A stretch of DNA of 64,000 nt. It comes from a virus. Both the position numbers and the translations under genes were made by a program. A model generated the notes under the pieces. The model was given only the letters and a program-made list of their open reading frames with translations, was not told the DNA's origin and made no database searches. Below are positions 17,269 through 56,579 of this stretch, in pieces (the stretch's first letter is position 1; every line of letters begins with the position of its first letter). The stretch spans positions 1 to 64,000 of the IMG/VR virus record IMGVR_UViG_3300031873_000003; one strand, written 5' to 3'.

Positions 17269-17332
17269 GTCTGGATTCCGAGACATGACGCCATACTTCC
17301 AGGATGACGCGGTGACGATCTACCACGGGGAC

Positions 17333-17785
17333 TTACGCAAGCCCGGAGCGGTTCAACGCTTTGACTTCCGCATAGATGGATTCGCGTTGCGCTACAACGG
17401 CGGGGTTAGTCTTTGTGCCGCGAACGCCAACACGCACAGCGCGACGTTGGGCAGTTGGCAACTCCTTAGACTCCCTGAGTTCACAAATCAGTTCGGCCTG
17501 CCTTCGCTTCAACCGCAGGTGAGGAAGCAGCGTCTTGGACGCCGACGCCGCGTTTCTGTTGCTGGCAACCCAGTAGAAAAACGGCTTCCACTTGGGATCT
17601 CGCTGCCGTTGGCGGACTGTTCCGCCAAAGGTGTCGCGCAGCATGTTCGGAACAACGTCGGACACCTGCCCGAGCCCGATGAACTCCGAATAGGTAGTAG
17701 ACCCGCGAATGGTATGCGACCGGATCGAAAAGAACCCGTCGGCATCCATCGCGCCAGCAAGGTAAGCGAGCGTTTCTTTATTCAT
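17333..17785 (-). CDS. LAGLIDADG homing endonuclease (single motif), antisense to the operon
   Basis: LAYLAGAMDADGFF; LLPHLRLKRRQAEL; own TTGACC-N17-TATGTT promoter at 17820-17792. Confidence 0.92.
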   Translation of the reverse strand: MNKETLAYLAGAMDADGFFSIRSHTIRGSTTYSEFIGLGQVSDVVPNMLRDTFGGTVRQRQRDPKWKPFFYWVASNRNAASASKTLLPHLRLKRRQAELICELRESKELPTAQRRAVRVGVRGTKTNPAVVAQRESIYAEVKALNRSGLA

Positions 17786-17812
17786 GCCAGCAACATACCA
17801 TAGGGGGTGTAG

Positions 17813-36911: not shown

Positions 36912-39900
36912 ATGGCAACAGAAGTAACCCATATAGTTGACCCTGGAGAAGGTGCAGGACACGATTACCATTCCCTATCCTTATGGGAGGCTGGTGAAGT
37001 GGGCGACCTCACGGGCGTAAGGGATGAGATCGCTGTTGCCAAGTGCCGAGCTACAGATGGGGATGCGGATACGACTGCCGTAGTTCTTGACGGTTGGATA
37101 ACTTCCCCCACCCAGTATATCAAAATCTGGACTGATCCTGCGGAATCACATCGCCATGATGGGAAATGGAATACAAGTAAATATCGTCTAACTGTTAGTG
37201 GTGCTTATACAATACAAAATAGTGAAAATTATACGAAAATAGATGGTATCCAATTTTCCGGGAATACGGGCGCCATATATAGGGGTTTGGCAATCGGTGC
37301 TCTTTCAAATTGTATATTAAATGGACTTAATACTAATAATCTTTCTGGTGTGTTACAAGAATCTGGAGGAGCGGTTACTTGTTGGAATGTTGTTGTTTTC
37401 AATTTGGGGACTGGTGCGAGTGGTTTTATTTCTTATACAAATGGTTCTAATTTTCGTAATTGTACTGCTTTTAATTGTGATAACGTAGGTATCGAGAATG
37501 GTTATGCGGATGCTGTAGCAACAAATTGTGTGGCACTTACTTGTGGGTCTTGCTTTGATGGCGGTATTGTTGGAAATTATAATTGTTCCTCAGATACGAC
37601 TGCTCCTGGGGCTAACTCTCTAAAAAGTAAGTCCGCAGCAAATAATTTTGTTGATATAGGTGCCGGAACAGAAGATTTGCATCTAAAACTTGGTGCAGAT
37701 TGTATAGATACAGGAACTGATTTATCTGCTTATTTTACAACTGACATAGATGGTACGACCCGACCGACAGGAGCAAATACCTGGGACATCGGGGCGGATG
37801 AGTATGTAGCTGGTGCAGAATCCCTATCTCCATCTGCTAGTCCTAGTTTAAGTCCATCACCATCCTTATCTCCCAGTGCAAGTTTGTCTCCTTCCGAGTC
37901 GCCATCCCTATCCCCCAGTGCAAGCTTGTCTCCATCTGCCTCGCTTTCGTCTTCTCTTAGTCCTTCGACCTCACCGTCAAAAAGTCCATCTAAAAGTCCT
38001 TCGACCTCACCCTCCAGGAGTCCCTCCAAAAGTCCCTCCAGGAGTCCCAGCGCCAGCCCAAGCTTAAGTCCATCAGCGTCAGCGTCTCCGTCTTTATCAC
38101 CATCTATTTCCCCAAGCATATCTCCTTCGGGATCTCCTTCGTTAAGTGCGAGTATAAGTCCAAGTGAGAGCCCGAGTTTGTCACCTTCGGCTTCGGTAAG
38201 CCCGTCTGTCAGTCCTTCAGTCAGTCCATCGGCATCTCCGTCAATGTCACCGAGTGTATCACCGTCGGCATCGCCTTCCGTATCGCCAAGCCTGAGTCCA
38301 TCAGCTTCTATTAGCCCTTCGCTTAGTCCATCTGCGAGTCCCTCGGAGAGCCCAAGTGAATCACCGTCGTTGAGTCCTTCTGCTTCAGTTTCACCAAGCG
38401 AATTGCCATCTGTATCACCGAGTATTTCCCCTTCGGGATCACCAAGTGAAAGTCCAAGCCTGTCTCCAAGCGTAAGCCCATCGGAATCTTTTTCAGAAAG
38501 TCCCTCAGAGTCGCCATCCTTATTACCCTCGGCCTCTGTGAGTCCTTCTTTGTCCCCATCTGCAAGCGTGTCACCTTCCGAGTCACCATCGTTGAGTCCG
38601 AGCATCTCACCATCGGTATCTCCATCTGCATCCCCATCACTATCTCCATCAGCGAGTATAAGTCCGTCGGTATCTCCATCAGTTTCACCCAGCGAAAGTC
38701 CTTCATTAAGCCCATCGGCTTCCGTAAGTCCCTCGGTTTCACCTTCGTTATCACCTTCTATCAGTCCAAGCATTAGTCCAAGTCTATCACCATCCGTTAG
38801 CCCAAGCAAAAGTCCTTCATTAAGCCCCAGCGCTTCACTATCTCCAAGTGTTTCACCAAGCGTCTCTCCATCAGTGAGTCCCAGTATTAGTCCTTCGGTA
38901 AGCCCCTCATTGTCTCCAAGTGCTTCGGTTTCACCGAGTATCAGTCCATCTCTATCGCCGAGCATAAGTCCGAGTGTTAGCCCAAGTGTTTCACCCAGTA
39001 TATCACCGTCAATAAGCCCATCTGAATCACCATCGTTTTCTCCGTCAGTTTCGCCATCTGTATCGCCAAGCGTAAGTCCTTCAATCAGTCCAAGTTTATC
39101 ACCGTCCCTGAGCCCATCAGTTTCACCATCGGTAAGTCCATCAATCAGTCCATCGGCGTCACCGTCCATGAGTCCGTCTTTAAGCCCCAGTGCTTCTGTC
39201 TCTCCATCAATGTCTCCCTCGGCTTCTCCGAGTTTATCTCCTTCTATTTCGCCATCGGTATCGCCAAGCGTAAGTCCTTCAATCAGTCCATCGGTTAGCC
39301 CGTCTGTAAGTCCGAGCATTAGTCCATCATTAAGTCCCAGTTTAAGTCCTTCAAAGAGTCCAAGTTTAAGTCCCAGTGCATCATTAAGTCCCAGTTTAAG
39401 TCCGTCTTTATCACCTTCCGAGAGCCCTTCACTTTTACCATCGGCTTCGCTCTCCCCGAGCTTGTCACCGAGCGCCAGCCCAAGCGTATCACCATCGGAA
39501 TCTCCGAGCTTATCGCCCTCGGCTTCGGTAAGTCCTTCCATAAGCCCGAGTTTGTCGGCTTCTGAATCTCCCTCGGTATCCCCAAGCTTTAGTCCGAGTG
39601 AATCACCATCCCTGAGTCCATCCGTTAGTCTTTCAATCTCTCCGTCGATCAGCCCCTCGGTTAGTCCGAGCAAATCACCTTCGGTTTCACCCTCTGAGAG
39701 TCCGAGTTTAAGTCCTTCCATTAGTCCATCTCTCAGCCCTTCAGCGAGCGTTTCACCATCGATTAGTCCATCCCTCTCCTTAAGTGAGTCACCATCGGTA
39801 AGCTATAGCCTATCGCCCAGCGCAAGTCCGTCCCTTAGCCCATCGATCTCACCCTCGGAGAGTGCAAGCTTAAGTCCAAGTATCAGTCCTTCGGTCTCTC

Positions 39901-40019
39901 CTTCGGCATCCGAGAGTCCATCAAGGTCGCCCTCAATATCTCCTTCTATGTCTCCGTCTATTGAGGGCGCTATGCTTTTGCAAAATTTTCATTACTACTA
40001 TCAAAACATAGGGGCTTGA
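36912..40019 (+). CDS. beta-helix (pectin-lyase-like) domain followed by a ~715-aa Ser-Pro-Ser-X tract
   Basis: NCTAFNC..., DLHLKLGADCIDTG...DIDG..R...WDIGADEY, then SPSx repeats at ~37818-39960. Confidence 0.85.
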   Translation: MATEVTHIVDPGEGAGHDYHSLSLWEAGEVGDLTGVRDEIAVAKCRATDGDADTTAVVLDGWITSPTQYIKIWTDPAESHRHDGKWNTSKYRLTVSGAYTIQNSENYTKIDGIQFSGNTGAIYRGLAIGALSNCILNGLNTNNLSGVLQESGGAVTCWNVVVFNLGTGASGFISYTNGSNFRNCTAFNCDNVGIENGYADAVATNCVALTCGSCFDGGIVGNYNCSSDTTAPGANSLKSKSAANNFVDIGAGTEDLHLKLGADCIDTGTDLSAYFTTDIDGTTRPTGANTWDIGADEYVAGAESLSPSASPSLSPSPSLSPSASLSPSESPSLSPSASLSPSASLSSSLSPSTSPSKSPSKSPSTSPSRSPSKSPSRSPSASPSLSPSASASPSLSPSISPSISPSGSPSLSASISPSESPSLSPSASVSPSVSPSVSPSASPSMSPSVSPSASPSVSPSLSPSASISPSLSPSASPSESPSESPSLSPSASVSPSELPSVSPSISPSGSPSESPSLSPSVSPSESFSESPSESPSLLPSASVSPSLSPSASVSPSESPSLSPSISPSVSPSASPSLSPSASISPSVSPSVSPSESPSLSPSASVSPSVSPSLSPSISPSISPSLSPSVSPSKSPSLSPSASLSPSVSPSVSPSVSPSISPSVSPSLSPSASVSPSISPSLSPSISPSVSPSVSPSISPSISPSESPSFSPSVSPSVSPSVSPSISPSLSPSLSPSVSPSVSPSISPSASPSMSPSLSPSASVSPSMSPSASPSLSPSISPSVSPSVSPSISPSVSPSVSPSISPSLSPSLSPSKSPSLSPSASLSPSLSPSLSPSESPSLLPSASLSPSLSPSASPSVSPSESPSLSPSASVSPSISPSLSASESPSVSPSFSPSESPSLSPSVSLSISPSISPSVSPSKSPSVSPSESPSLSPSISPSLSPSASVSPSISPSLSLSESPSVSYSLSPSASPSLSPSISPSESASLSPSISPSVSPSASESPSRSPSISPSMSPSIEGAMLLQNFHYYYQNIGA

Positions 40020-44230: not shown

Positions 44231-44513
44231 CAACGACTGGTTCAGTTGGAGCCCCGAAACAGAAGAGCGGATGAATTTTGTTGGTGGACGGTATACTGCC
44301 TGCGAAGTAATCAGGCAAGCATACCGTAGGATTCAAGACCCGGAAGTAAAGTTGATGTTAAGGATTGCTACAACGATGTGCAAGTCGATGGCAACAAGAA
44401 TCACCAAATATGATGGGCGAAGGTGGGGAAAGGATATATACCCGCTTAATCCATACTTAAATAGAGAAACGGAAATGTTGGTGAAGGTTGACATCCTCCC
44501 CCCACTAAAGTAG
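44223..44513 (+). CDS. hypothetical protein, paralog of the 55367 gene; 3' end altered by the IS
   Basis: C..IR..Y....DPE.KL..R.A..M.K.M shared. Confidence 0.65.
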   Translation: MDSNDWFSWSPETEERMNFVGGRYTACEVIRQAYRRIQDPEVKLMLRIATTMCKSMATRITKYDGRRWGKDIYPLNPYLNRETEMLVKVDILPPLK

Positions 44514-45815
44514 GGGGATTCCCAGAAAGGTTAAACAGAGTGCTTAACATTTCCAAGTTGGTTCACGTTTCTACGAGGTCTGCCTTTTCGAGCCGAAGCC
44601 CGAACTGGTCTTGTAACCTCTCCACGCGCTTTTACGGAGTGTCCCTCCGCATCACGGATATTTATCGCTGCGTTATCATCGCGGTCGTGGTGAGTCTTAC
44701 ACTCGGGGCAATACCACTCACGAATGCTCAAGGGAAGCGATTCCAGTATGTACCCGCAGACATTACAGCGTTTACTACTTGGGAAAAATGGATCGATAAT
44801 CCGAAGATCCTTTTCGTACCAGTCGCATTTGTAGGTAAGCATTCCCCGAAACATGCCAAAGGCGGCATCGCCGATAACTCTTGCCAGTTTGTGATTTCTG
44901 ACCATACCTCGAACATTCAGATCTTCGATTTGAATTACGTCAAAGCGACGAACCAAATCGGTGGTCACTTTGTAGAGGTGGTCTTTCCGCATGTTAGCAA
45001 TATGCTCTTGAAGACGAGCAACCTTGAGAATAGCCCGGCGCCGTCTACCGCTCCCCTTCTTCTTCTTGGCAAGCTTCCGCTGCAGCTTCTTCAGCTTCAG
45101 GAGATTCGTCCCAAGAGCCCTGGGGTTTGGGATTTGTTCGCCATTGGACAAGGTAGCCAGACGAGAAACGCCGAGGTCGATGCCGATTTTCAAGCCAGTC
45201 TTCGGAAGGGGCAGCCTCACTTCATCGAGGCAGAGAGTAACAAAGTATTTCCCACTTGGCAACTTGGTTATTGTCACCGTGGTGGGGATACTCTGGAAAC
45301 CTCTGCTCCAGTGAATGTCAAGTCTGCCAATGCCGGAGATGCTCAAATTGCGATTGGCAGCATCCCACTTGAACGCGCTTCGGGTGTACTCAGCGGTCTG
45401 CTTGCCTCGCTTCTTCTTGAATGTCGGATACTTCGCAGTCTTGTTCCAGAAGTTGATGTAAGCAGTCTGGAGATGCCGAAGCGCTTGCTGGGTCGGGACG
45501 CAAGAGATCTCGTTGAGCCATTCGGTTTCCGGTTGCCTTTTCAGTTCGGTGAGCATAGCGGAAGATTCGTTGTACCCAATGCTTCGGTTCTCTTTGAACC
45601 AAGCATCAGTACGGATGCGCAGAAAACGATTGAAGACGAACCGACAGGAACCGAAAATCCGAGAAAGGCTCTCGGCCTGTTGTTTTGTCGGGTAAACCCG
45701 GTATGTGTGTCTCATCTTCACAATACTATTGTATCTTGTGTAAATTCAGAAGTCAAACAAAAATAAAAGATGGCATTTCCTCCCCCGGCTAAAGTCGGGG
45801 GTATCCATGCCGAAA
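44488..45815 (-). mobile_element. IS200/IS605 family element (tnpB only, IS1341-like)
   Basis: Right end (minus) GAATCCCCCTACTTTAGTGGGGGGAGGATGTCAA; left hairpin 45775-45815; no tnpA. Confidence 0.88.
44531..45721 (-). CDS. tnpB: TnpB RNA-guided endonuclease, apparently intact
   Basis: YRVYPT..Q, GIDLG, IEDL, SSKRC..CG, CPEC..HDRDDNAA. Confidence 0.96.
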   Translation of the reverse strand: MKMRHTYRVYPTKQQAESLSRIFGSCRFVFNRFLRIRTDAWFKENRSIGYNESSAMLTELKRQPETEWLNEISCVPTQQALRHLQTAYINFWNKTAKYPTFKKKRGKQTAEYTRSAFKWDAANRNLSISGIGRLDIHWSRGFQSIPTTVTITKLPSGKYFVTLCLDEVRLPLPKTGLKIGIDLGVSRLATLSNGEQIPNPRALGTNLLKLKKLQRKLAKKKKGSGRRRRAILKVARLQEHIANMRKDHLYKVTTDLVRRFDVIQIEDLNVRGMVRNHKLARVIGDAAFGMFRGMLTYKCDWYEKDLRIIDPFFPSSKRCNVCGYILESLPLSIREWYCPECKTHHDRDDNAAINIRDAEGHSVKARGEVTRPVRASARKGRPRRNVNQLGNVKHSV

Positions 45816-52144: not shown

Positions 52145-52610
52145 CAATAGCATTAAACTTATGCGTTGGTTTAGGGATAAGTATTTACAGGAGTTGAAAG
52201 GATGTACCGTGCTGGATATTGGGTCTAAGGTAGGCAGAACTTCAAGGAATGCTACGTACGGAGGTAGGGTATTTTTTCCCCCAGACTATAATTATATTGG
52301 AATGGATGTTGTTCCGGGAAGAAACGTGACAATAGTGGGATACGATAATCTTCCAGTGTGTGAGGTGGTTGTCAGTGGGCAGGTTATGGAGCATGTGCAG
52401 AGGCCGTGGGAGTGGCTGAAGAATTTGGTGCAATATTACACAAAGTTTATCTGTGTTATTGCTCCGAATACTTGCCCGGAGCATAAGTTTCCTTTCGATA
52501 CATATAGATATTTCACAGATGGAATGCGTGATTTATTTGAGTACGCAGGTATTCGAGAGATTGAAATCAGAATGAGTGGAAATGATACGATAGGAGTTGG
52601 GGGGAAATAA
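52137..52610 (+). CDS. SAM-dependent methyltransferase
   Basis: VLDIGS, GMDVVPG.NV, SGQVMEHV..PW. Confidence 0.85.
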   Translation: MHSNSIKLMRWFRDKYLQELKGCTVLDIGSKVGRTSRNATYGGRVFFPPDYNYIGMDVVPGRNVTIVGYDNLPVCEVVVSGQVMEHVQRPWEWLKNLVQYYTKFICVIAPNTCPEHKFPFDTYRYFTDGMRDLFEYAGIREIEIRMSGNDTIGVGGK

Positions 52611-52630
52611 TGCCAAACTTTACGGCAAGC

Positions 52631-52852
52631 TTAATTGCCCTTGGACAATACAACCCAGTCCGTTCCCGACATGTCTCCAGTAGAGATGACCAGGGGGTGA
52701 AGACTTTGGTCTTTGGGCGTGAAAATGACAAGTTTTTCCTGGGACATGACCACATAGGTTCCGTCGTCGGGCCATTCAAGGCGTCTCAGTTTTTTCCCTT
52801 CGAGAAGACTCTCGGTACAATCGGGGAAATCCATGGTGTTTTCTTCGTTCAT
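52631..52852 (-). CDS. DUF2829 / Tad2-like protein, antisense to the operon
   Basis: MDF.....LLEGKKLRRLEW...S.GDM..TDW; AGGAGG RBS; own TTGACA-N18-TATAAT promoter at 52909-52880. Confidence 0.68.
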   Translation of the reverse strand: MNEENTMDFPDCTESLLEGKKLRRLEWPDDGTYVVMSQEKLVIFTPKDQSLHPLVISTGDMSGTDWVVLSKGN

Positions 52853-52902
52853 TGTTGGCTGACCTCCTTTTTGGGCAATATTATACGCAAAGGCGTTGGT
52901 GA

Positions 52903-55377
52903 ATGTCAAGAAAAATCGACTTAGCAAGGGGGTATATGTCTCAAAAATATAGTTTAAGCGTGTGCATTCCCGCAAGAAACGAACAATTTCTTTCCCTTAC
53001 GGTTGATGATCTCTTGAAGAATATCCGAGGGAATACTGAAATCATCGTGATATGTGACGGGAACTATCCTGACCCTCCCATTAAGGATGACCCAAGGGTA
53101 ACGCTGATCTATCATAGCCAGTCTATTGGACAGAGAGCGGCATGTAATGAGGCGGCGAGGTATTCAAGGGCGAAATATCTGGCGAAGTGTGATAGCCACT
53201 GTTCCTTTGATGAAGGGTTTGATGTGAAGTTACTTGAAGATATGCAGGATGATTGGACGATGGTTCCGATCATGAAAAATTTATGGATTTATGATTGGGT
53301 GTGCGAATCAGGCCACCGTAGGTACCAAGGTCCTTCTGGCCCCTGTACGGAATGTGGTAAACCAACTGTAAGAGATTTGAAGTGGATCGGGAAAAATAAT
53401 CCACAGAGTACAGTATACTGCTTTGACCCCGAACCGCATTTCCAGTACGCAGTAGACTTTAAGAAACGGGATTGGTATCAAAAGTCTCTTAAAGAAACAG
53501 GGTTGACCGAGACAATGAGTTTACAGGGGTCTTTTTTCATGTTAACCCGACAGAAGTATTTTGAACTCAATATGAATGACGAGGAGTTCGAGAACTGGGG
53601 ATCGCAAGGTTTAGAAGTGGCAATAAAAACATGGACTTCTGGGGGAAAGGTTATCTGTTCTCATAAGACATGGTATTCTCACTGCTTTCACACGCAAGGG
53701 GGGGATTTCGGGTTTTCATGGCCTTGTTCTGGTAGACAGGTTGCCCGAACAAAGAGAAGGGCGAAACAAGTTTTCTTCAAACAAAAATGGGGACCACAGC
53801 AAAGATATCCCCTGAGCTGGCTTGTGGAACGATTTTGGCCTACTTCTTATTGGAAAGATGAGGATTTAAGGATTCTCAAGGCGACGGAGGCGACATTCTT
53901 TGACTTTGACCTTAAACTTTTCAGGGTTCCTGGCGTAGTTGGTTCTGTTCCAAGCCCGGTGACAGATCATACATCTTCTGTGTCCTCTCTTGTCGGGAGG
54001 AGGGAGCAAGTGCCCGTTTCTGCAATGAGTCAACCTGGTCTTCCAGGGGATAATCTTATCTCCGGGACCACGGTTCTCTCTGACGTTGGCACGTCGCCTA
54101 CGTTGACCGTCGGCAGCACAGATAGTACAGATACGAAAAGGAGGACTGTTGGGAAAGTGTCTCGTGGGGGGCAAGAGGTGTCCTCTGGGGCAGTGAGTTT
54201 TGGCACGGTTGACGGAAGAAACAGCATTGGAGGGACGGAGATTATCAATCTGCAAAGCCAATCTGAGATGGAAAGGACTACAACAAGCCCTATTATTACA
54301 GACAACATGATCAACAACGGGAATGCCAGTGGCGTAACCCATAGGGACGGGTCCGATAAGCCAGGCGAAAGTCAATCTGTGCATTCTGAAGGTGTGGTTG
54401 TGTCCGATAGAGTTGGCGAGACGTTTGAAGTTGCCAAGCCCATATCCATCCTTGTCGAGACTCCCCAGCCAGTTCCAGCACCCAGTGATAGGGTCAATCT
54501 CAATCTTGGAAAAAATTCTGTCGATGTCTCTTGCGGAAAGGGTGGGGATTATGAGAAAATTGGAATTAGACATGAATCCTCCCATAGTAAGGATTTGTGT
54601 TTAGGATTGGAACGGTGCGACGAACATCGTTCCATTCCGAATACTATACCACAAGCCGATAAATTACGCAAGTGTATAATATTTTACAGTGACAATGAAT
54701 TAGATGAAACGATCTTCAAGGCAGTCCAGAAACAACTCCTTCGATCCCTCAATGGCAACGAACTCATTTCTGTCACTCTCAAGCCAATAGACTTCGGCAA
54801 AAACATCGTCCTCCCCCTAAAACGTAGCCACCTTTCTATGGCACGTCAACAGCTTGCAGGGTTGGAGGCAAGTACAGCAGACATCATATTTTTCGCAGAG
54901 CACGATATTTTATATCCAAAAGAGCATTTTGATTTTACTCCCCCACGTAAAGATGTTTTTTATTACAATTTGAACTGGTACAAGGTTCGCACCCAGGACG
55001 GCCAATCTCTTCACTTTACGGCCAAGCAAGTAAGTGGCCTATGCGCTTACCGAGACATCCTTCTCGACTACTACCGGAAGAGGGTTTCCATGATCGAGAG
55101 TGGAGAGATTGGAGGGAGAAGGCATTTTGAGCCAGGAAGCAATCATTACAGGGATGCGTATGATAAGCTTACCAACCTTGGGTCTGATACCTGGCGATCT
55201 TCCGTCCCTTACGTGGACATTAGGCACAAAGGAACTGTGACCAGGAATATCTTCGATCCCTCTGGTTATCGCAACACGATGAAGGATTGGACAATGGTGG
55301 ACGAGATACCTGGAGGGTGGGGAAAAACAAAAGGAAGATTTTGGGAGTTCTTGCAGGAGGCGGTCGATGCCATATAA
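52903..55377 (+). CDS. two-domain glycosyltransferase with a ~270-aa insert that is the antisense of an HNH gene
   Basis: N-terminal GT2 (SVCIPARNE..KCDSH); C-terminal GT-A (IIFYSDN..FFAEHDILY); alternative start 52936. Confidence 0.82.
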   Translation: MSRKIDLARGYMSQKYSLSVCIPARNEQFLSLTVDDLLKNIRGNTEIIVICDGNYPDPPIKDDPRVTLIYHSQSIGQRAACNEAARYSRAKYLAKCDSHCSFDEGFDVKLLEDMQDDWTMVPIMKNLWIYDWVCESGHRRYQGPSGPCTECGKPTVRDLKWIGKNNPQSTVYCFDPEPHFQYAVDFKKRDWYQKSLKETGLTETMSLQGSFFMLTRQKYFELNMNDEEFENWGSQGLEVAIKTWTSGGKVICSHKTWYSHCFHTQGGDFGFSWPCSGRQVARTKRRAKQVFFKQKWGPQQRYPLSWLVERFWPTSYWKDEDLRILKATEATFFDFDLKLFRVPGVVGSVPSPVTDHTSSVSSLVGRREQVPVSAMSQPGLPGDNLISGTTVLSDVGTSPTLTVGSTDSTDTKRRTVGKVSRGGQEVSSGAVSFGTVDGRNSIGGTEIINLQSQSEMERTTTSPIITDNMINNGNASGVTHRDGSDKPGESQSVHSEGVVVSDRVGETFEVAKPISILVETPQPVPAPSDRVNLNLGKNSVDVSCGKGGDYEKIGIRHESSHSKDLCLGLERCDEHRSIPNTIPQADKLRKCIIFYSDNELDETIFKAVQKQLLRSLNGNELISVTLKPIDFGKNIVLPLKRSHLSMARQQLAGLEASTADIIFFAEHDILYPKEHFDFTPPRKDVFYYNLNWYKVRTQDGQSLHFTAKQVSGLCAYRDILLDYYRKRVSMIESGEIGGRRHFEPGSNHYRDAYDKLTNLGSDTWRSSVPYVDIRHKGTVTRNIFDPSGYRNTMKDWTMVDEIPGGWGKTKGRFWEFLQEAVDAI
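53866..54573 (-). CDS. HNH homing endonuclease nested antisense inside the glycosyltransferase
   Basis: GCWNWLG..DKDGYG, HRL.F, VDHVVCNNRACC.P.HL, KTHCPRGH and THCRNGH zinc fingers; GGAGG RBS; TTGCGT-N17-TATAGT promoter at 54671-54643. Confidence 0.92.
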   Translation of the reverse strand: MSNSNFLIIPTLSARDIDRIFSKIEIDPITGCWNWLGSLDKDGYGLGNFKRLANSIGHNHTFRMHRLTFAWLIGPVPMGYATGIPVVDHVVCNNRACCSPFHLRLALQIDNLRPSNAVSSVNRAKTHCPRGHLLPPTRHFPNSPPFRICTICAADGQRRRRANVRENRGPGDKIIPWKTRLTHCRNGHLLPPPDKRGHRRCMICHRAWNRTNYARNPEKFKVKVKECRLRRLENP

Positions 55378-55609
55378 AAAATACCCACCCGTAGATGAAG
55401 CGACGATGGACAGAAAAAGATTCGAGGGACATCATTCCGTGTGCCAGACCCTAAGAGATATTTATCATCTTACGGATGATCCGGAGATTAAGCTTAAGTG
55501 CAGGTTGGCGGTGGCAATGACGAAAGCTATGCACGAGCGCCTAAAATGGTACAAGGCAAAGAACCTTGCCGAAGCAGAAATAAGGGAGAAAAAGGATGCC
55601 TCAACTTAA
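55367..55609 (+). CDS. hypothetical protein, paralog of the 44223 gene
   Basis: SVCQTLRDIY...DPEIKLKCRLA..M.KAM. Confidence 0.65.
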   Translation: MPYKKYPPVDEATMDRKRFEGHHSVCQTLRDIYHLTDDPEIKLKCRLAVAMTKAMHERLKWYKAKNLAEAEIREKKDAST

Positions 55610-56579
55610 CTTTGAATATAAAAACCTTATAGGCATTTCAAGGCAGAAGGATACCAACAGAATTCCGGTAGGATATGTTGCCTACGCCATGAATGTTGAT
55701 TCGGATGATGAAAAGAAACTTCGTAGACGCAGGGGTCTTACTTCTGTTTCCACGGTGAATACCCATAGCGTATGGTCAAACAGGGATATCTGTCTATGTG
55801 TCCAGGGAGGCGTCTTAAAAGAGGTAACAATTAACCTTGTTACCAACACAGCCACCTATGTTACCCTGTTATCTGGGGCGGGCGATACACCCATGATCTT
55901 TCGGGAAGCGGGGGATATGGTCTTTTTTTCCAATAGCGACGTTTTTGGATATATCCGGGAACATGCGGTACATGGTATTTCAGAAGTTAGCGAGACCTTT
56001 AAGGTTCGGATGGTGGGAGGACACCTGATGGAATATTGGGATTCTCGCCTATGGGTATTTCAGGATAACATTCTGATTTATTCCGATGCCACAGAACCAA
56101 TGGTTAGAGACGAGAGGCATAACTTCGTGACGTTCAATGGCCGTGGAAGGATGCTTGAGGCCGTCAGGGACGGGATTTACGTGAGCGATAACGAAAGGTG
56201 TGGTTTTCTTCAGGGAGGAGCGGGAGACCCTCCCAAGTTCAATTATACCGAGGTCTGTCCTTCTCCATGTATCGAAGGCATGGCAGTCTCAAGTGTTGAA
56301 CAATTAGCAGGAATATCGGTTAAGGTGGTATTCTGGGTTACAGAGGAAGGTTGTTACATGGGACTGCCAGGGGGGCAAGTGAATAAGGTTACGGGGGATC
56401 ATTTTTACATTGAAGGGGCGTCAATAGGGAGGATGATGGTTTTGAATAGGTCTTTTCCGGATCATACAAGTATTGACCAGCTATTAGGGACCTATGACTT
56501 ATGGCCTGGCTATGGAGGAATGGAAATAGAGTTAGATGTTCCGGCGACGGACGTTGACGGTCGCATTACTGCGGCTTAA
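55596..56579 (+). CDS. putative tail tubular/nozzle-like beta protein
   Basis: NVD.D....LRRRRG start; beta-rich; position in the structural module. Confidence 0.5.
   Translation: MPQLNFEYKNLIGISRQKDTNRIPVGYVAYAMNVDSDDEKKLRRRRGLTSVSTVNTHSVWSNRDICLCVQGGVLKEVTINLVTNTATYVTLLSGAGDTPMIFREAGDMVFFSNSDVFGYIREHAVHGISEVSETFKVRMVGGHLMEYWDSRLWVFQDNILIYSDATEPMVRDERHNFVTFNGRGRMLEAVRDGIYVSDNERCGFLQGGAGDPPKFNYTEVCPSPCIEGMAVSSVEQLAGISVKVVFWVTEEGCYMGLPGGQVNKVTGDHFYIEGASIGRMMVLNRSFPDHTSIDQLLGTYDLWPGYGGMEIELDVPATDVDGRITAA

What the first reader, a model, noticed from the sequence alone, without database searches (positions are those of the whole stretch)
53866..54671. HNH homing endonuclease nested antisense inside a glycosyltransferase without breaking its reading frame
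Seen in sequence: the whole HNH gene, its RBS, two hairpins (54576-54638) and its promoter lie within the open 824-aa plus-strand ORF, between the two GT domains. The frames are codon-aligned, so 235 HNH codons avoid TTA, CTA and TCA. I see no intein (C...HN) or group I motifs in the insert. Inference: this may be a further way for a homing endonuclease to be harmless, being translated on the host strand as a tolerated linker rather than spliced out.
Basis: partly seen in the sequence, partly recalled or inferred. Interest (0 to 1): 0.82.

Follow-up and report, generated by a model that had tools for sequence, protein, structure and literature searches.

The report
Backwards HNH gene read through by glycosyltransferase
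A selfish DNA-cutting (HNH) gene sits backwards, codon for codon, between the two halves of a phage sugar-transferase gene and avoids every codon that would stop the host frame, so the host protein is probably made with a floppy junk linker rather than by splicing the insert out.

Summary
An intact HNH endonuclease gene (53866-54573, minus strand, 235 codons) lies inside an unbroken 824-codon plus-strand ORF (52903-55377). That ORF joins two glycosyltransferase-fold domains. The gene has a ribosome-binding site, two 5' hairpins and a promoter-like site.

The two frames are codon-aligned. The HNH gene has no TTA, CTA or TCA codon, against 3.9% of codons in the window's other genes (P about 1e-4). 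The other two antisense phases carry 7 and 17 stops.

The layout recurs. Six other uncultured-phage contigs carry 33-65% identical HNH genes backwards in this glycosyltransferase, at two sites, and all are open. Six clade members outside the frame carry 2-7 such codons.

The HNH frame is the conserved one. AlphaFold gives the insert as disordered, between two confident domains. I found no intein or intron signal.

Best reading: a free-standing homing-endonuclease cassette that is tolerated because ribosomes read through it. The benefit could be the fused protein, unbroken translation of the operon, or both.

The nearest published cases are the same-strand 'ShiLan' hidden HNH (2025) and antisense endonucleases inside inteins. 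This scan has already noted the same antisense layout in other phage genes, so I class it as a new variant. Expression, cleavage and the full-length protein are all untested.

The parts
52903..55377 (+). Host ORF, 824 codons: two-domain phage glycosyltransferase, open across the whole insert
   Evidence: ORF; Pfam GT2, aa 19-121, E 3.4e-14; more than 1400 homologues
52903..53922 (+). N domain (aa 1-340), GT-A fold resembling polypeptide GalNAc-transferases, ending in a helix at aa 319-340
   Evidence: pLDDT above 90 for aa 12-330; Foldseek hits to GalNAc-T2/T1, E about 1e-15
53923..54669 (+). Host-frame translation of the insert (aa 341-589): predicted disordered spacer with no family match
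   Evidence: pLDDT 27-50, almost no secondary structure; no PHROG; no Pfam; host-frame identity between copies is lower than HNH-frame identity
54670..55377 (+). C domain (aa 590-824), a second GT-A-like domain with a conserved EHD motif
   Evidence: own model pLDDT 90.6; Foldseek: heparosan synthase 2, PBCV-1 capsid glycosyltransferase, TarP, SpsA; E about 1e-5, TM about 0.5
53866..54573 (-). HNH endonuclease gene, 235 codons plus stop. An upstream in-frame ATG at 54585 is unlikely to be the start. The gene contains a duplicated THC..GHLLPP zinc-finger-like module.
   Evidence: PHROG 826, E 1.2e-34; D88 H89 C92 N93 N94 C97 C98 P100 H102 N111 are invariant across nested and free copies; 0 TTA/CTA/TCA
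53869..53904 (.). True dual-coding overlap: the last 12 HNH codons are antisense to conserved N-domain residues L322-F333
   Evidence: W317 invariant, DL..LKE....F conserved in HNH-free homologues; sequence
54577..54583 (-). Shine-Dalgarno GGGAGGA, 3 nt before the ATG at 54573
54570..54600 (-). 5'-UTR hairpin that pairs the SD and start codon (possible translational damper)
   Evidence: MFE fold of the predicted leader, -19.5 kcal/mol for both hairpins together
54608..54634 (-). 5'-UTR hairpin, conserved with one substitution in L002
   Evidence: the 51-nt stretch 54640-54590 holding it folds at -16.3 kcal/mol, z -3.8, 0 of 200 shuffles as stable
54643..54671 (-). Promoter-like site: -35 TTGCGT (54671-54666), 17-nt spacer, extended -10 TGnTATAGT (-10 at 54648-54643). 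Both hexamers and the 17-nt spacing are identical in L002.
   Evidence: not flagged by the consensus scan; function inferred only

Best explanation
A free-standing HNH homing-endonuclease cassette sits backwards in the variable linker of a two-domain phage glycosyltransferase gene. The cassette comprises a promoter-like site, a two-hairpin leader, an SD and a 235-codon ORF. It is in the one antisense phase where only three of its own codons (TTA, CTA, TCA) would create host-frame stops. All three can be replaced synonymously, and selection keeps them out.

Ribosomes translating the glycosyltransferase therefore run straight through the insert. They make the N domain, about 250 residues of disordered filler, and the C domain as one chain, and they continue into the operon. 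No RNA or protein splicing is involved. The HNH protein is made from its own antisense transcript. It presumably spreads the cassette by cutting HNH-less alleles in co-infecting relatives.

Shown: the anatomy, the selection for an open frame, purifying selection on the HNH frame, recurrence at two sites, and the absence of intron or intein signals.

Inferred: translation of the full-length fusion, the antisense promoter, and nuclease activity and homing.
For: (1) Stop avoidance in the window. There are 0 such codons in 235, against 3.9% genome-wide. The model probabilities are P 8e-5 (all codons) and 2e-4 (synonymous). Only the aligned phase is open: 0 stops, against 7 and 17 in the other two.

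(2) Replication. Nested copies with both flanks seen are the window, L002, L092, L120, L124, L206 and L213. All have 0 stops in ORFs of 715-824 codons. The partial copies L242 and L218 are also open.

(3) Natural control. Members of the same HNH clade that lie outside the frame carry such codons: L033 5, L034 2, L035 3, L128 5, L205 7, L207 2. Four lie just beyond the 3' end of an N-only gene (L033, L034, L035, L128). L205 lies at the N-domain 3' end on a short contig, and L207 lies upstream of an N gene. At their pooled rate (24 in about 1000 codons), the probability of 0 in the 1218 nested codons is about 1e-13.

(4) Which frame is selected. Differences between copies pile up at HNH codon position 3 (for example 52/22/74 at positions 1/2/3 for L092 versus L120). 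HNH identity exceeds host-frame identity in all 10 pairs. In a roughly 95% identical variant, 4 of 7 listed changes inside the HNH are HNH-synonymous but change the host residue.

(5) The insert is dispensable and is a linker. Most homologues join N and C by 0-60 residues. L064 has a natural 175-residue acidic linker. AlphaFold gives aa 341-579 pLDDT below 50, between domains above 90.

(6) No splicing machinery was found.

(7) The cassette behaves as foreign and mobile. Its GC content is 0.50-0.53 against 0.42-0.46 in the flanks. It is present in only some alleles: 44 of 267 retrieved homologue representatives carry the translated antisense-HNH signature. HNH and glycosyltransferase identities correlate only weakly (rho 0.21). 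In the X4 contig, listed differences drop from 23 in 194 nt of the glycosyltransferase flank to 7 in about 520 nt of cassette.
Against: There are no expression data of any kind. No RNA run is listed for this DNA, and neither the full-length protein nor the antisense transcript has been seen.

L202 and L209 keep the frame open through the HNH even though no C domain is fused downstream. So the fusion itself need not be what is selected.

Per-gene frequencies of the three codons vary widely in this window (0.4-12%). The single-locus P value is therefore softer than the model suggests, and the case rests on the replicated comparison.

The promoter call is manual, and its -35 element is poor (3 of 6).

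No HNH-less allele above 85% identity was found, so the exact insertion boundaries and target site are undefined.

The mosaic-divergence argument uses a truncated difference list.

For those proteins the antisense HNH is inferred from a translation signature only.
Confidence: 0.75

Rival explanations
1. Ribosome transit, not fusion, is what is selected. The frame is kept open so that the operon mRNA stays translated across an antisense passenger. That would avoid Rho-type polarity and keep translational coupling. The N-filler-C chain would be a by-product, or would be cleaved or non-functional. This rival is partly compatible with the best explanation.
For: In L202 and L209 the N ORF reads through the whole HNH. 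In L202 it overlaps the next gene's start (stop 2526-2528, next ATG at 2514), and in L209 it ends 3 nt before it (stop 2517-2519, next ATG at 2513). No C domain is fused in either. In this same window an antisense TnpB gene (44531-45721) has 0 of 396 such codons, with P about 6e-8. Its operon-strand frame is open from 44492 to 45766 although it lies between genes. A small antisense Tad2-like gene (52634-52852) is likewise covered by a codon-aligned plus ORF, 52610-52924. That ORF starts where the upstream gene ends (52610) and runs into the glycosyltransferase start.
Against: At the second site the HNH splits the N domain itself (L092, L120, L124, L206). There a single chain is the simplest way to keep an enzyme. 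The window has no usable start for the C domain. Polarity in the unknown host is assumed, not shown. Four clade members lie just beyond the 3' end of an N-only gene (L033, L034, L035, L128). They carry host-frame stops although the strand continues: L035 has a further gene 1886-2551 downstream on the same strand.
Confidence: 0.3
2. The insert is removed after all, either by an unrecognised intron (RNA) or by an atypical intein or protease step (protein). The open frame would then be needed only until removal.
For: Antisense endonuclease genes inside bona fide inteins are documented (bioRxiv 10.1101/2025.01.02.630785). One homologue of this glycosyltransferase (P0198) does carry a real intein. 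The residue after the insert is Cys in both the window and L002.
Against: Pfam finds no Hint or intein domain in the 824-aa protein, yet finds one readily in P0198. The HNH antisense begins inside the N domain's last helix, and only about 30 residues remain on the other side. That leaves no room for a splicing domain of 130 residues or more. No HN precedes the Cys. The model is disordered. Rfam finds nothing at E<=1, and an intron would not need an open frame.
Confidence: 0.04
3. The open antisense frame is a compositional accident of this HNH gene and is not selected.
For: The codon-aligned antisense phase is generally the poorest in stops. Some genes in this window have only 1 such codon in 170-220 codons. 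About 14 of 80 more distant HNH genes in other phages also have none.
Against: The result is replicated in 7 diverged nested copies, with 2 more partial ones, against 6 of 6 non-nested clade members that have stops. Fisher's test on 9 versus 6 genes gives about 2e-4. The nested genes are 40-50% GC, and their own loci use these codons at 3.7-9%.
Confidence: 0.02

Closest known systems
ShiLan domain / 'hidden' out-of-frame HNH insertions in actinobacteriophage DNA methylases (Arsenault, Gosselin and Gogarten 2025, PMC11855218)
   Same: An HNH endonuclease gene is inserted in a phage enzyme gene. No intein or intron is detectable. The host frame has no stop across the insert, and the insert is proposed to be translated as a tolerated loop. 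Its distribution among alleles is patchy.
   Different: There the HNH is on the same strand, in the third frame, in high-GC phages, and how it is translated is unexplained. That paper does not mention antisense at all. Here the HNH is on the opposite strand, codon-aligned, and has its own promoter-like site and SD. The genomes are 40-50% GC, where an open frame is statistically demanding. A natural stops-versus-no-stops control is available.
Inteins with an endonuclease gene on the antisense strand (LAGLIDADG: Gorbalenya 1998, Gogarten 2002; LAGLIDADG and VSR-like in actinophages: bioRxiv 10.1101/2025.01.02.630785)
   Same: The endonuclease ORF is antisense to a host ORF that stays open across it. 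The host-frame translation of that stretch has no recognisable fold.
   Different: In those cases the filler is flanked by intein splicing domains and is excised from the protein. Here no splicing domain exists, so the filler should remain in the mature protein.
Free-standing homing endonucleases that split a host gene: mobE in Aeromonas phage Aeh1 nrdA (PMC3045599; review PMC2988022)
   Same: An HNH-family free-standing endonuclease gene is inserted into a phage enzyme gene at a tolerated position, without an intron or intein. The host function is rescued by other means.
   Different: There the host gene is broken into two ORFs whose products reassemble. Here the ORF is never broken. The clade members at N-only genes (L033, L034, L035, L128) resemble the split solution.
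Nuclease genes at recombination boundaries in phage genomes (Barth et al. 2023, PMC10448857)
   Same: There is a sharp change of divergence at the edge of the nuclease cassette (X4 contig).
   Different: That work concerns intergenic endonuclease genes between core genes, not antisense intragenic ones.

Membership tests
HNH endonuclease (phage HNH_3 / PHROG 826 type) | Significant profile match to HNH endonuclease families | tested here: met
   PHROG 826 at E 1.2e-34, plus five further HNH PHROGs. Pfam HNH_3 alone is below its cut-off (16.2 against 24.8 bits).
HNH endonuclease (phage HNH_3 / PHROG 826 type) | Conserved catalytic and metal-binding motif (DH..CNN..CC.P.HL ... N) | tested here: met
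   D88 H89 C92 N93 N94 C97 C98 P100 H102 L105 N111 are invariant across the 6 aligned nested and free copies.
Free-standing homing endonuclease gene | Own expression signals; not part of an intron or intein | tested here: met
   SD and ATG, with a promoter-like site conserved in L002. Clade members outside the frame (L033, L035, L128) have a promoter-like TTGACT-17-TATAAT/TATACT/TAAACT site ending 6 nt before the ATG. No Rfam intron and no Hint domain. Promoter function is inferred.
Free-standing homing endonuclease gene | Presence/absence polymorphism among otherwise homologous alleles, and evidence of horizontal movement | tested here: inconclusive
   Presence is patchy: 44 of 267 homologue representatives carry the signature, and most IMG/VR alleles lack it. 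There are two insertion sites. HNH and host identities correlate weakly. Divergence is mosaic in one variant contig. No near-identical HNH was seen in clearly different hosts, and no empty allele above 85% identity was found.
Free-standing homing endonuclease gene | Site-specific cleavage of the endonuclease-less allele | not testable with these tools
   Needs purified protein and an empty-site substrate.
Intein | Hint splicing domain with N-terminal Cys/Ser and C-terminal His-Asn followed by Cys/Ser/Thr | tested here: not met
   Pfam finds no intein or Hint match in the 824-aa protein, while P0198 is detected with the same tool. Lys-Cys, not His-Asn-Cys, stands at the right edge. The insert is disordered in the model.
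Group I / group II intron | Conserved catalytic RNA core | tested here: not met
   cmscan against Rfam 15 over 52500-55800, both strands, E<=1, gave no match. Only about 90 nt of the insert lie outside the HNH ORF.
ShiLan-type read-through endonuclease insertion | Endonuclease ORF inside a host ORF that has no stop across it, with no splicing element | tested here: met
ShiLan-type read-through endonuclease insertion | Endonuclease encoded on the same strand in an alternative frame | tested here: not met
   Here it is on the opposite strand and codon-aligned.
GT-A fold glycosyltransferase (host gene, both domains) | GT-A fold with a DxD-like motif | tested here: met
   N: Pfam GT2 and Foldseek hits to ppGalNAc-T at E about 1e-15. 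C: Foldseek hits to GT-A enzymes at E about 1e-5 and TM about 0.5, with an invariant EHD motif. The C assignment is moderate.

The most novel reading that the evidence does not exclude
Selfish or accessory genes that point against a translationally coupled phage operon may be systematically 'stop-proofed' on the operon strand. They would sit in the codon-aligned antisense phase and purge TTA, CTA and TCA, so that ribosomes cross them. This single window shows the pattern three times: the HNH inside the glycosyltransferase, a TnpB between genes, and a Tad2-like gene under a spacer ORF. The HNH case recurs at two sites in many phages. That would make 'antisense read-through' a general third route, beside introns and inteins, by which mobile genes live harmlessly inside operons and genes.
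Probability: 0.45. Interest if true: 0.85.

Novelty: new variant of a known kind. Interest (0 to 1): 0.72.

Why it matters
Homing endonuclease genes are thought to survive inside genes only by riding on self-splicing introns or inteins, or else by splitting the gene. Here the cost of insertion seems to be removed by nothing more than phase choice and synonymous codon choice. That is a minimal route, and it leaves a clear and countable signature.

It has practical consequences for annotation. Gene callers report one long protein and hide the nuclease: 44 of the 267 retrieved database homologue representatives carry such hidden translated inserts.

It also provides a natural experiment on dual-strand coding and on how much disordered filler an enzyme tolerates.

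Finally, together with the TnpB case in the same window, it raises a testable idea. Keeping ribosomes moving across antisense passengers may be under selection in phage operons.

Tried and rejected
- GenBank phage collection: blastn and tblastn with the locus and the protein gave no match.
DNA behind the database proteins could not be checked, so I used a profile of the host-frame translation instead.
- The consensus sigma-70 and terminator scan found nothing on the minus strand upstream of the HNH. The promoter-like site was found by eye and by conservation.
- Rfam gave no match.
- Sequencing runs: no RNA holder is listed.
- Laying contigs of four sediment metagenomes found no contig that joins the N domain to the C domain across the insert. 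No empty allele at 85% identity or more was found either. Two internal joints in X4 (276 and 71 nt skipped, 'between: not known') were left uninterpreted.
- A class of 806-851-residue homologues looked at first like a third insert type. It is a tandem duplication of the C domain.
- Pfam on ten other antisense ORF pairs in the window gave nothing.
- An internal start for the C domain was considered. There is no in-frame ATG after 54308, and the in-frame TTGs at 54595 and 54607 have an AGGA only 0-1 nt upstream, so this is unlikely.
- Complex prediction and the protein atlas were not used.
Full report
**What is there**

The window is part of a 93.8-kb uncultured virus record that CheckV rates complete. 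At 52903-55377 the plus strand has an unbroken 824-codon ORF. At 53866-54585 the minus strand has a 239-codon ORF.

Alignment with relatives places the real start at the second ATG, 54573.

The minus-strand protein is an HNH endonuclease. It matches PHROG 826 at E 1.2e-34 and five further HNH PHROGs. Its DH..CNN..CC.P.HL...N motif is invariant across relatives. It carries a duplicated THC..GHLLPP zinc-finger-like module, which explains its extra length.

Codons on both strands start at coordinates equal to 1 mod 3, so the two frames are codon-aligned.

**The host gene**

The N part (aa 12-340) is Pfam GT2. In an AlphaFold model it folds with pLDDT above 90 and resembles polypeptide GalNAc-transferases.

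The C part (aa 590-824) has no Pfam match. Modelled alone it reaches pLDDT 90.6 and has a GT-A fold (heparosan synthase 2, the PBCV-1 capsid glycosyltransferase, TarP, SpsA). So 'two GT domains' is supported, moderately for C.

More than 1400 homologues exist. Most join N and C by 0-60 residues. Some phages encode N and C as separate genes, and one has a natural 175-residue acidic linker. The junction is therefore a tolerant place.

In the model the insert (aa 341-579) has pLDDT 27-50 and almost no secondary structure.

The last 12 HNH codons are antisense to conserved N-domain residues L322-F333. That is a short stretch of true dual coding.

**Is the open frame more than chance?**

In this phase a host stop arises only from the HNH codons TTA, CTA or TCA. 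The HNH gene has none in 235 codons.

The window's other genes use these codons at 3.9%. That gives P 8e-5, or 2e-4 when only synonymous choice at its 19 Leu and 11 Ser codons is modelled. The two other antisense phases have 7 and 17 stops.

Per-gene rates vary from 0.4% to 12%. However, no real gene of 150 codons or more in the window has zero, apart from this HNH and a TnpB.

**Replication**

The stronger evidence is replication. DNA-level searches that do not depend on an ORF being called were run with the N domain, the C domain and the HNH alignment, in IMG/VR and in metagenome contigs. They found the same HNH clade backwards in this glycosyltransferase in L002 and L213, at the N/C junction. 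They also found it in L092, L120, L124 and L206 at a second site, a loop inside the N domain near window aa 190-200.

The partial cases L242 and L218 are also open as far as they can be seen.

All are in the aligned phase and all have zero stops, in ORFs of 715-824 codons. The HNH proteins are only 33-65% identical and differ at most third positions. The codons have therefore turned over many times.

**A natural control**

Six members of the same clade do not lie within a frame that must continue. Four lie just beyond the 3' end of an N-only gene (L033, L034, L035, L128). L205 lies at the N-domain 3' end on a short contig, and L207 lies upstream of an N gene. They carry 2-7 such codons each.

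At their pooled rate, zero in the 1218 nested codons has a probability of about 1e-13. By genes the comparison is 0 of 9 against 6 of 6.

**Which frame is the gene?**

Between nested copies, differences concentrate at HNH codon position 3. HNH identity exceeds host-frame identity in every pair.

A roughly 95% identical variant contig from a freshwater sediment metagenome covers 53593-54513. It shows the same pattern in miniature. Of seven listed changes inside the HNH, four are silent for the HNH and change the host residue. In the glycosyltransferase flank, 18 of 23 listed changes are at host third positions.

So the HNH protein is under purifying selection. The host frame in the insert is constrained only not to stop.

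**Expression signals**

Upstream of the ATG on the minus strand lie the following:

- an SD, GGGAGGA, at 54583-54577;
- a hairpin that pairs the SD, at 54600-54570;
- a second hairpin at 54634-54608; the 51-nt stretch 54640-54590 that holds it folds with z -3.8;
- a promoter-like TTGCGT-17-TGnTATAGT at 54671-54643.

The hexamers, the spacing and the main hairpin are conserved in L002, although the HNH proteins are only about 47% identical.

The clade members L033, L035 and L128 have a promoter-like TTGACT-17-TATAAT, TATACT or TAAACT site ending 6 nt before the ATG. These are readings of sequence, not evidence of function. The tool's own scan did not flag the window's site.

**Splicing**

Rfam finds nothing at E<=1. 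Only about 90 nt of the insert lie outside the HNH ORF, and an intron would not need an open frame.

Pfam finds no Hint or intein domain. The same tool does find one in a homologue, P0198. There is no room for a splicing domain, no His-Asn before the Cys at the right edge, and no predicted fold.

**Mobility**

The cassette is richer in GC than its flanks. Its translated signature is present in only 44 of 267 retrieved homologue representatives, and it occurs at two sites. Its relationships follow those of the host gene only weakly (rho 0.21).

In the X4 variant, listed differences fall from 23 in 194 nt (53652-53845) to 7 in about 520 nt (53846-54368). This is the pattern expected if the cassette was exchanged more recently than its surroundings. 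The list is truncated, so I treat this as suggestive.

No empty allele close enough to define the exact boundaries was found.

**What is selected?**

In the window there is no plausible start for the C domain. Read-through is therefore the only evident way to make it.

In L202 and L209, however, the N ORF also runs through the whole HNH although no C domain follows. In L202 it overlaps the start of the next gene, and in L209 it ends 3 nt before the next gene's start.

The same window also holds an antisense TnpB gene (44531-45721). It has 0 of 396 such codons, and its operon-strand frame is open from 44492 to 45766 (P about 6e-8). A small antisense Tad2-like gene is likewise covered by a codon-aligned spacer ORF that bridges two plus-strand genes.

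Continuous translation of the operon may thus be part, or even the core, of the benefit. The two readings are not exclusive.

**What is known**

The closest published case is the 'ShiLan domain'. It is an HNH hidden in an alternative frame on the same strand of mycobacteriophage methylase genes, read through by the host frame, with no intron or intein. That paper does not mention antisense (PMC11855218).

Antisense endonuclease ORFs are known inside inteins, where the filler is spliced out (bioRxiv 10.1101/2025.01.02.630785).

Free-standing endonucleases that split a gene are known from phage Aeh1 nrdA (PMC3045599).

Literature searches found no description of an antisense endonuclease gene with no intein that the host frame reads through.

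Earlier notes of this scan report the same layout in other phage genes, namely virion proteins, a protease and a methylase. I did not test those. They mean this is not the first sighting within the scan.

**Verdict**

I class it as a new variant of a known kind. What this locus adds is a clean natural control, two insertion sites, a sense in-frame GIY-YIG at the same junction in other phages, and hints that ribosome transit matters.

Noticed in passing
window 44492-45766: A 396-codon TnpB gene (OrfB_IS605, Cas12f-like TNB, HTH_OrfB_IS605) lies on the minus strand at 44531-45721, between plus-strand genes. It has no TTA, CTA or TCA codon. Its codon-aligned plus frame is open for 424 codons (listed ORF 44540-45766, no Pfam), while the other antisense phases have 9 and 19 stops. 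P is about 6e-8 with the window's codon usage.
   Followed up: partly
window 52610-52975: A 73-codon minus-strand Tad2-like gene (52634-52852, Pfam E 8e-7) is covered by a codon-aligned plus ORF, 52610-52924, with no family match. That ORF starts where the upstream methyltransferase-like ORF ends (52610) and runs into the glycosyltransferase start at 52903. It is too short for the stop-avoidance to be significant on its own.
   Followed up: partly
L019:4992-7094 (also P0009, P0014, P0024, P0213, P0262): In other phages the same N/C junction holds a GIY-YIG plus NUMOD3 endonuclease in the sense orientation. It is in frame and has no stop of its own. An internal Met lies just before the GIY-YIG motif, so it is either an N-endonuclease-C fusion or an endonuclease-C product from an internal start. 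For P0262 the only support is a precomputed Pfam PF01541 entry.
   Followed up: partly
P0198 (1181 aa homologue): One homologue of the glycosyltransferase carries a genuine intein (Pfam Intein_splicing, Hint_2). This gene family therefore hosts inteins, sense GIY-YIG genes and antisense HNH genes.
   Followed up: no
L033:2588-2788: Beyond the convergent HNH there is a second, weak copy of the N-domain 3' end (aa 261-326, E 6e-5) on the glycosyltransferase strand. It may be a remnant of the original gene end displaced by the cassette.
   Followed up: no
P0178-P0197 class (806-851 aa): Many homologues have the architecture N-C-C, a tandem duplication of the C domain.
   Followed up: partly
window 36912-40019 (+) and 37730-39721 (-): A 1035-codon plus gene with PT-repeat-like composition has a 663-codon antisense ORF in a phase that is not codon-aligned. 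Neither matches a family beyond the weak repeat hit, so this is probably compositional.
   Followed up: no
window 17285-17803, 18822-19664, 23701-24162: Three further pairs of similar-length ORFs lie on opposite strands, with no Pfam match on either strand. Which strand codes is unclear.
   Followed up: partly
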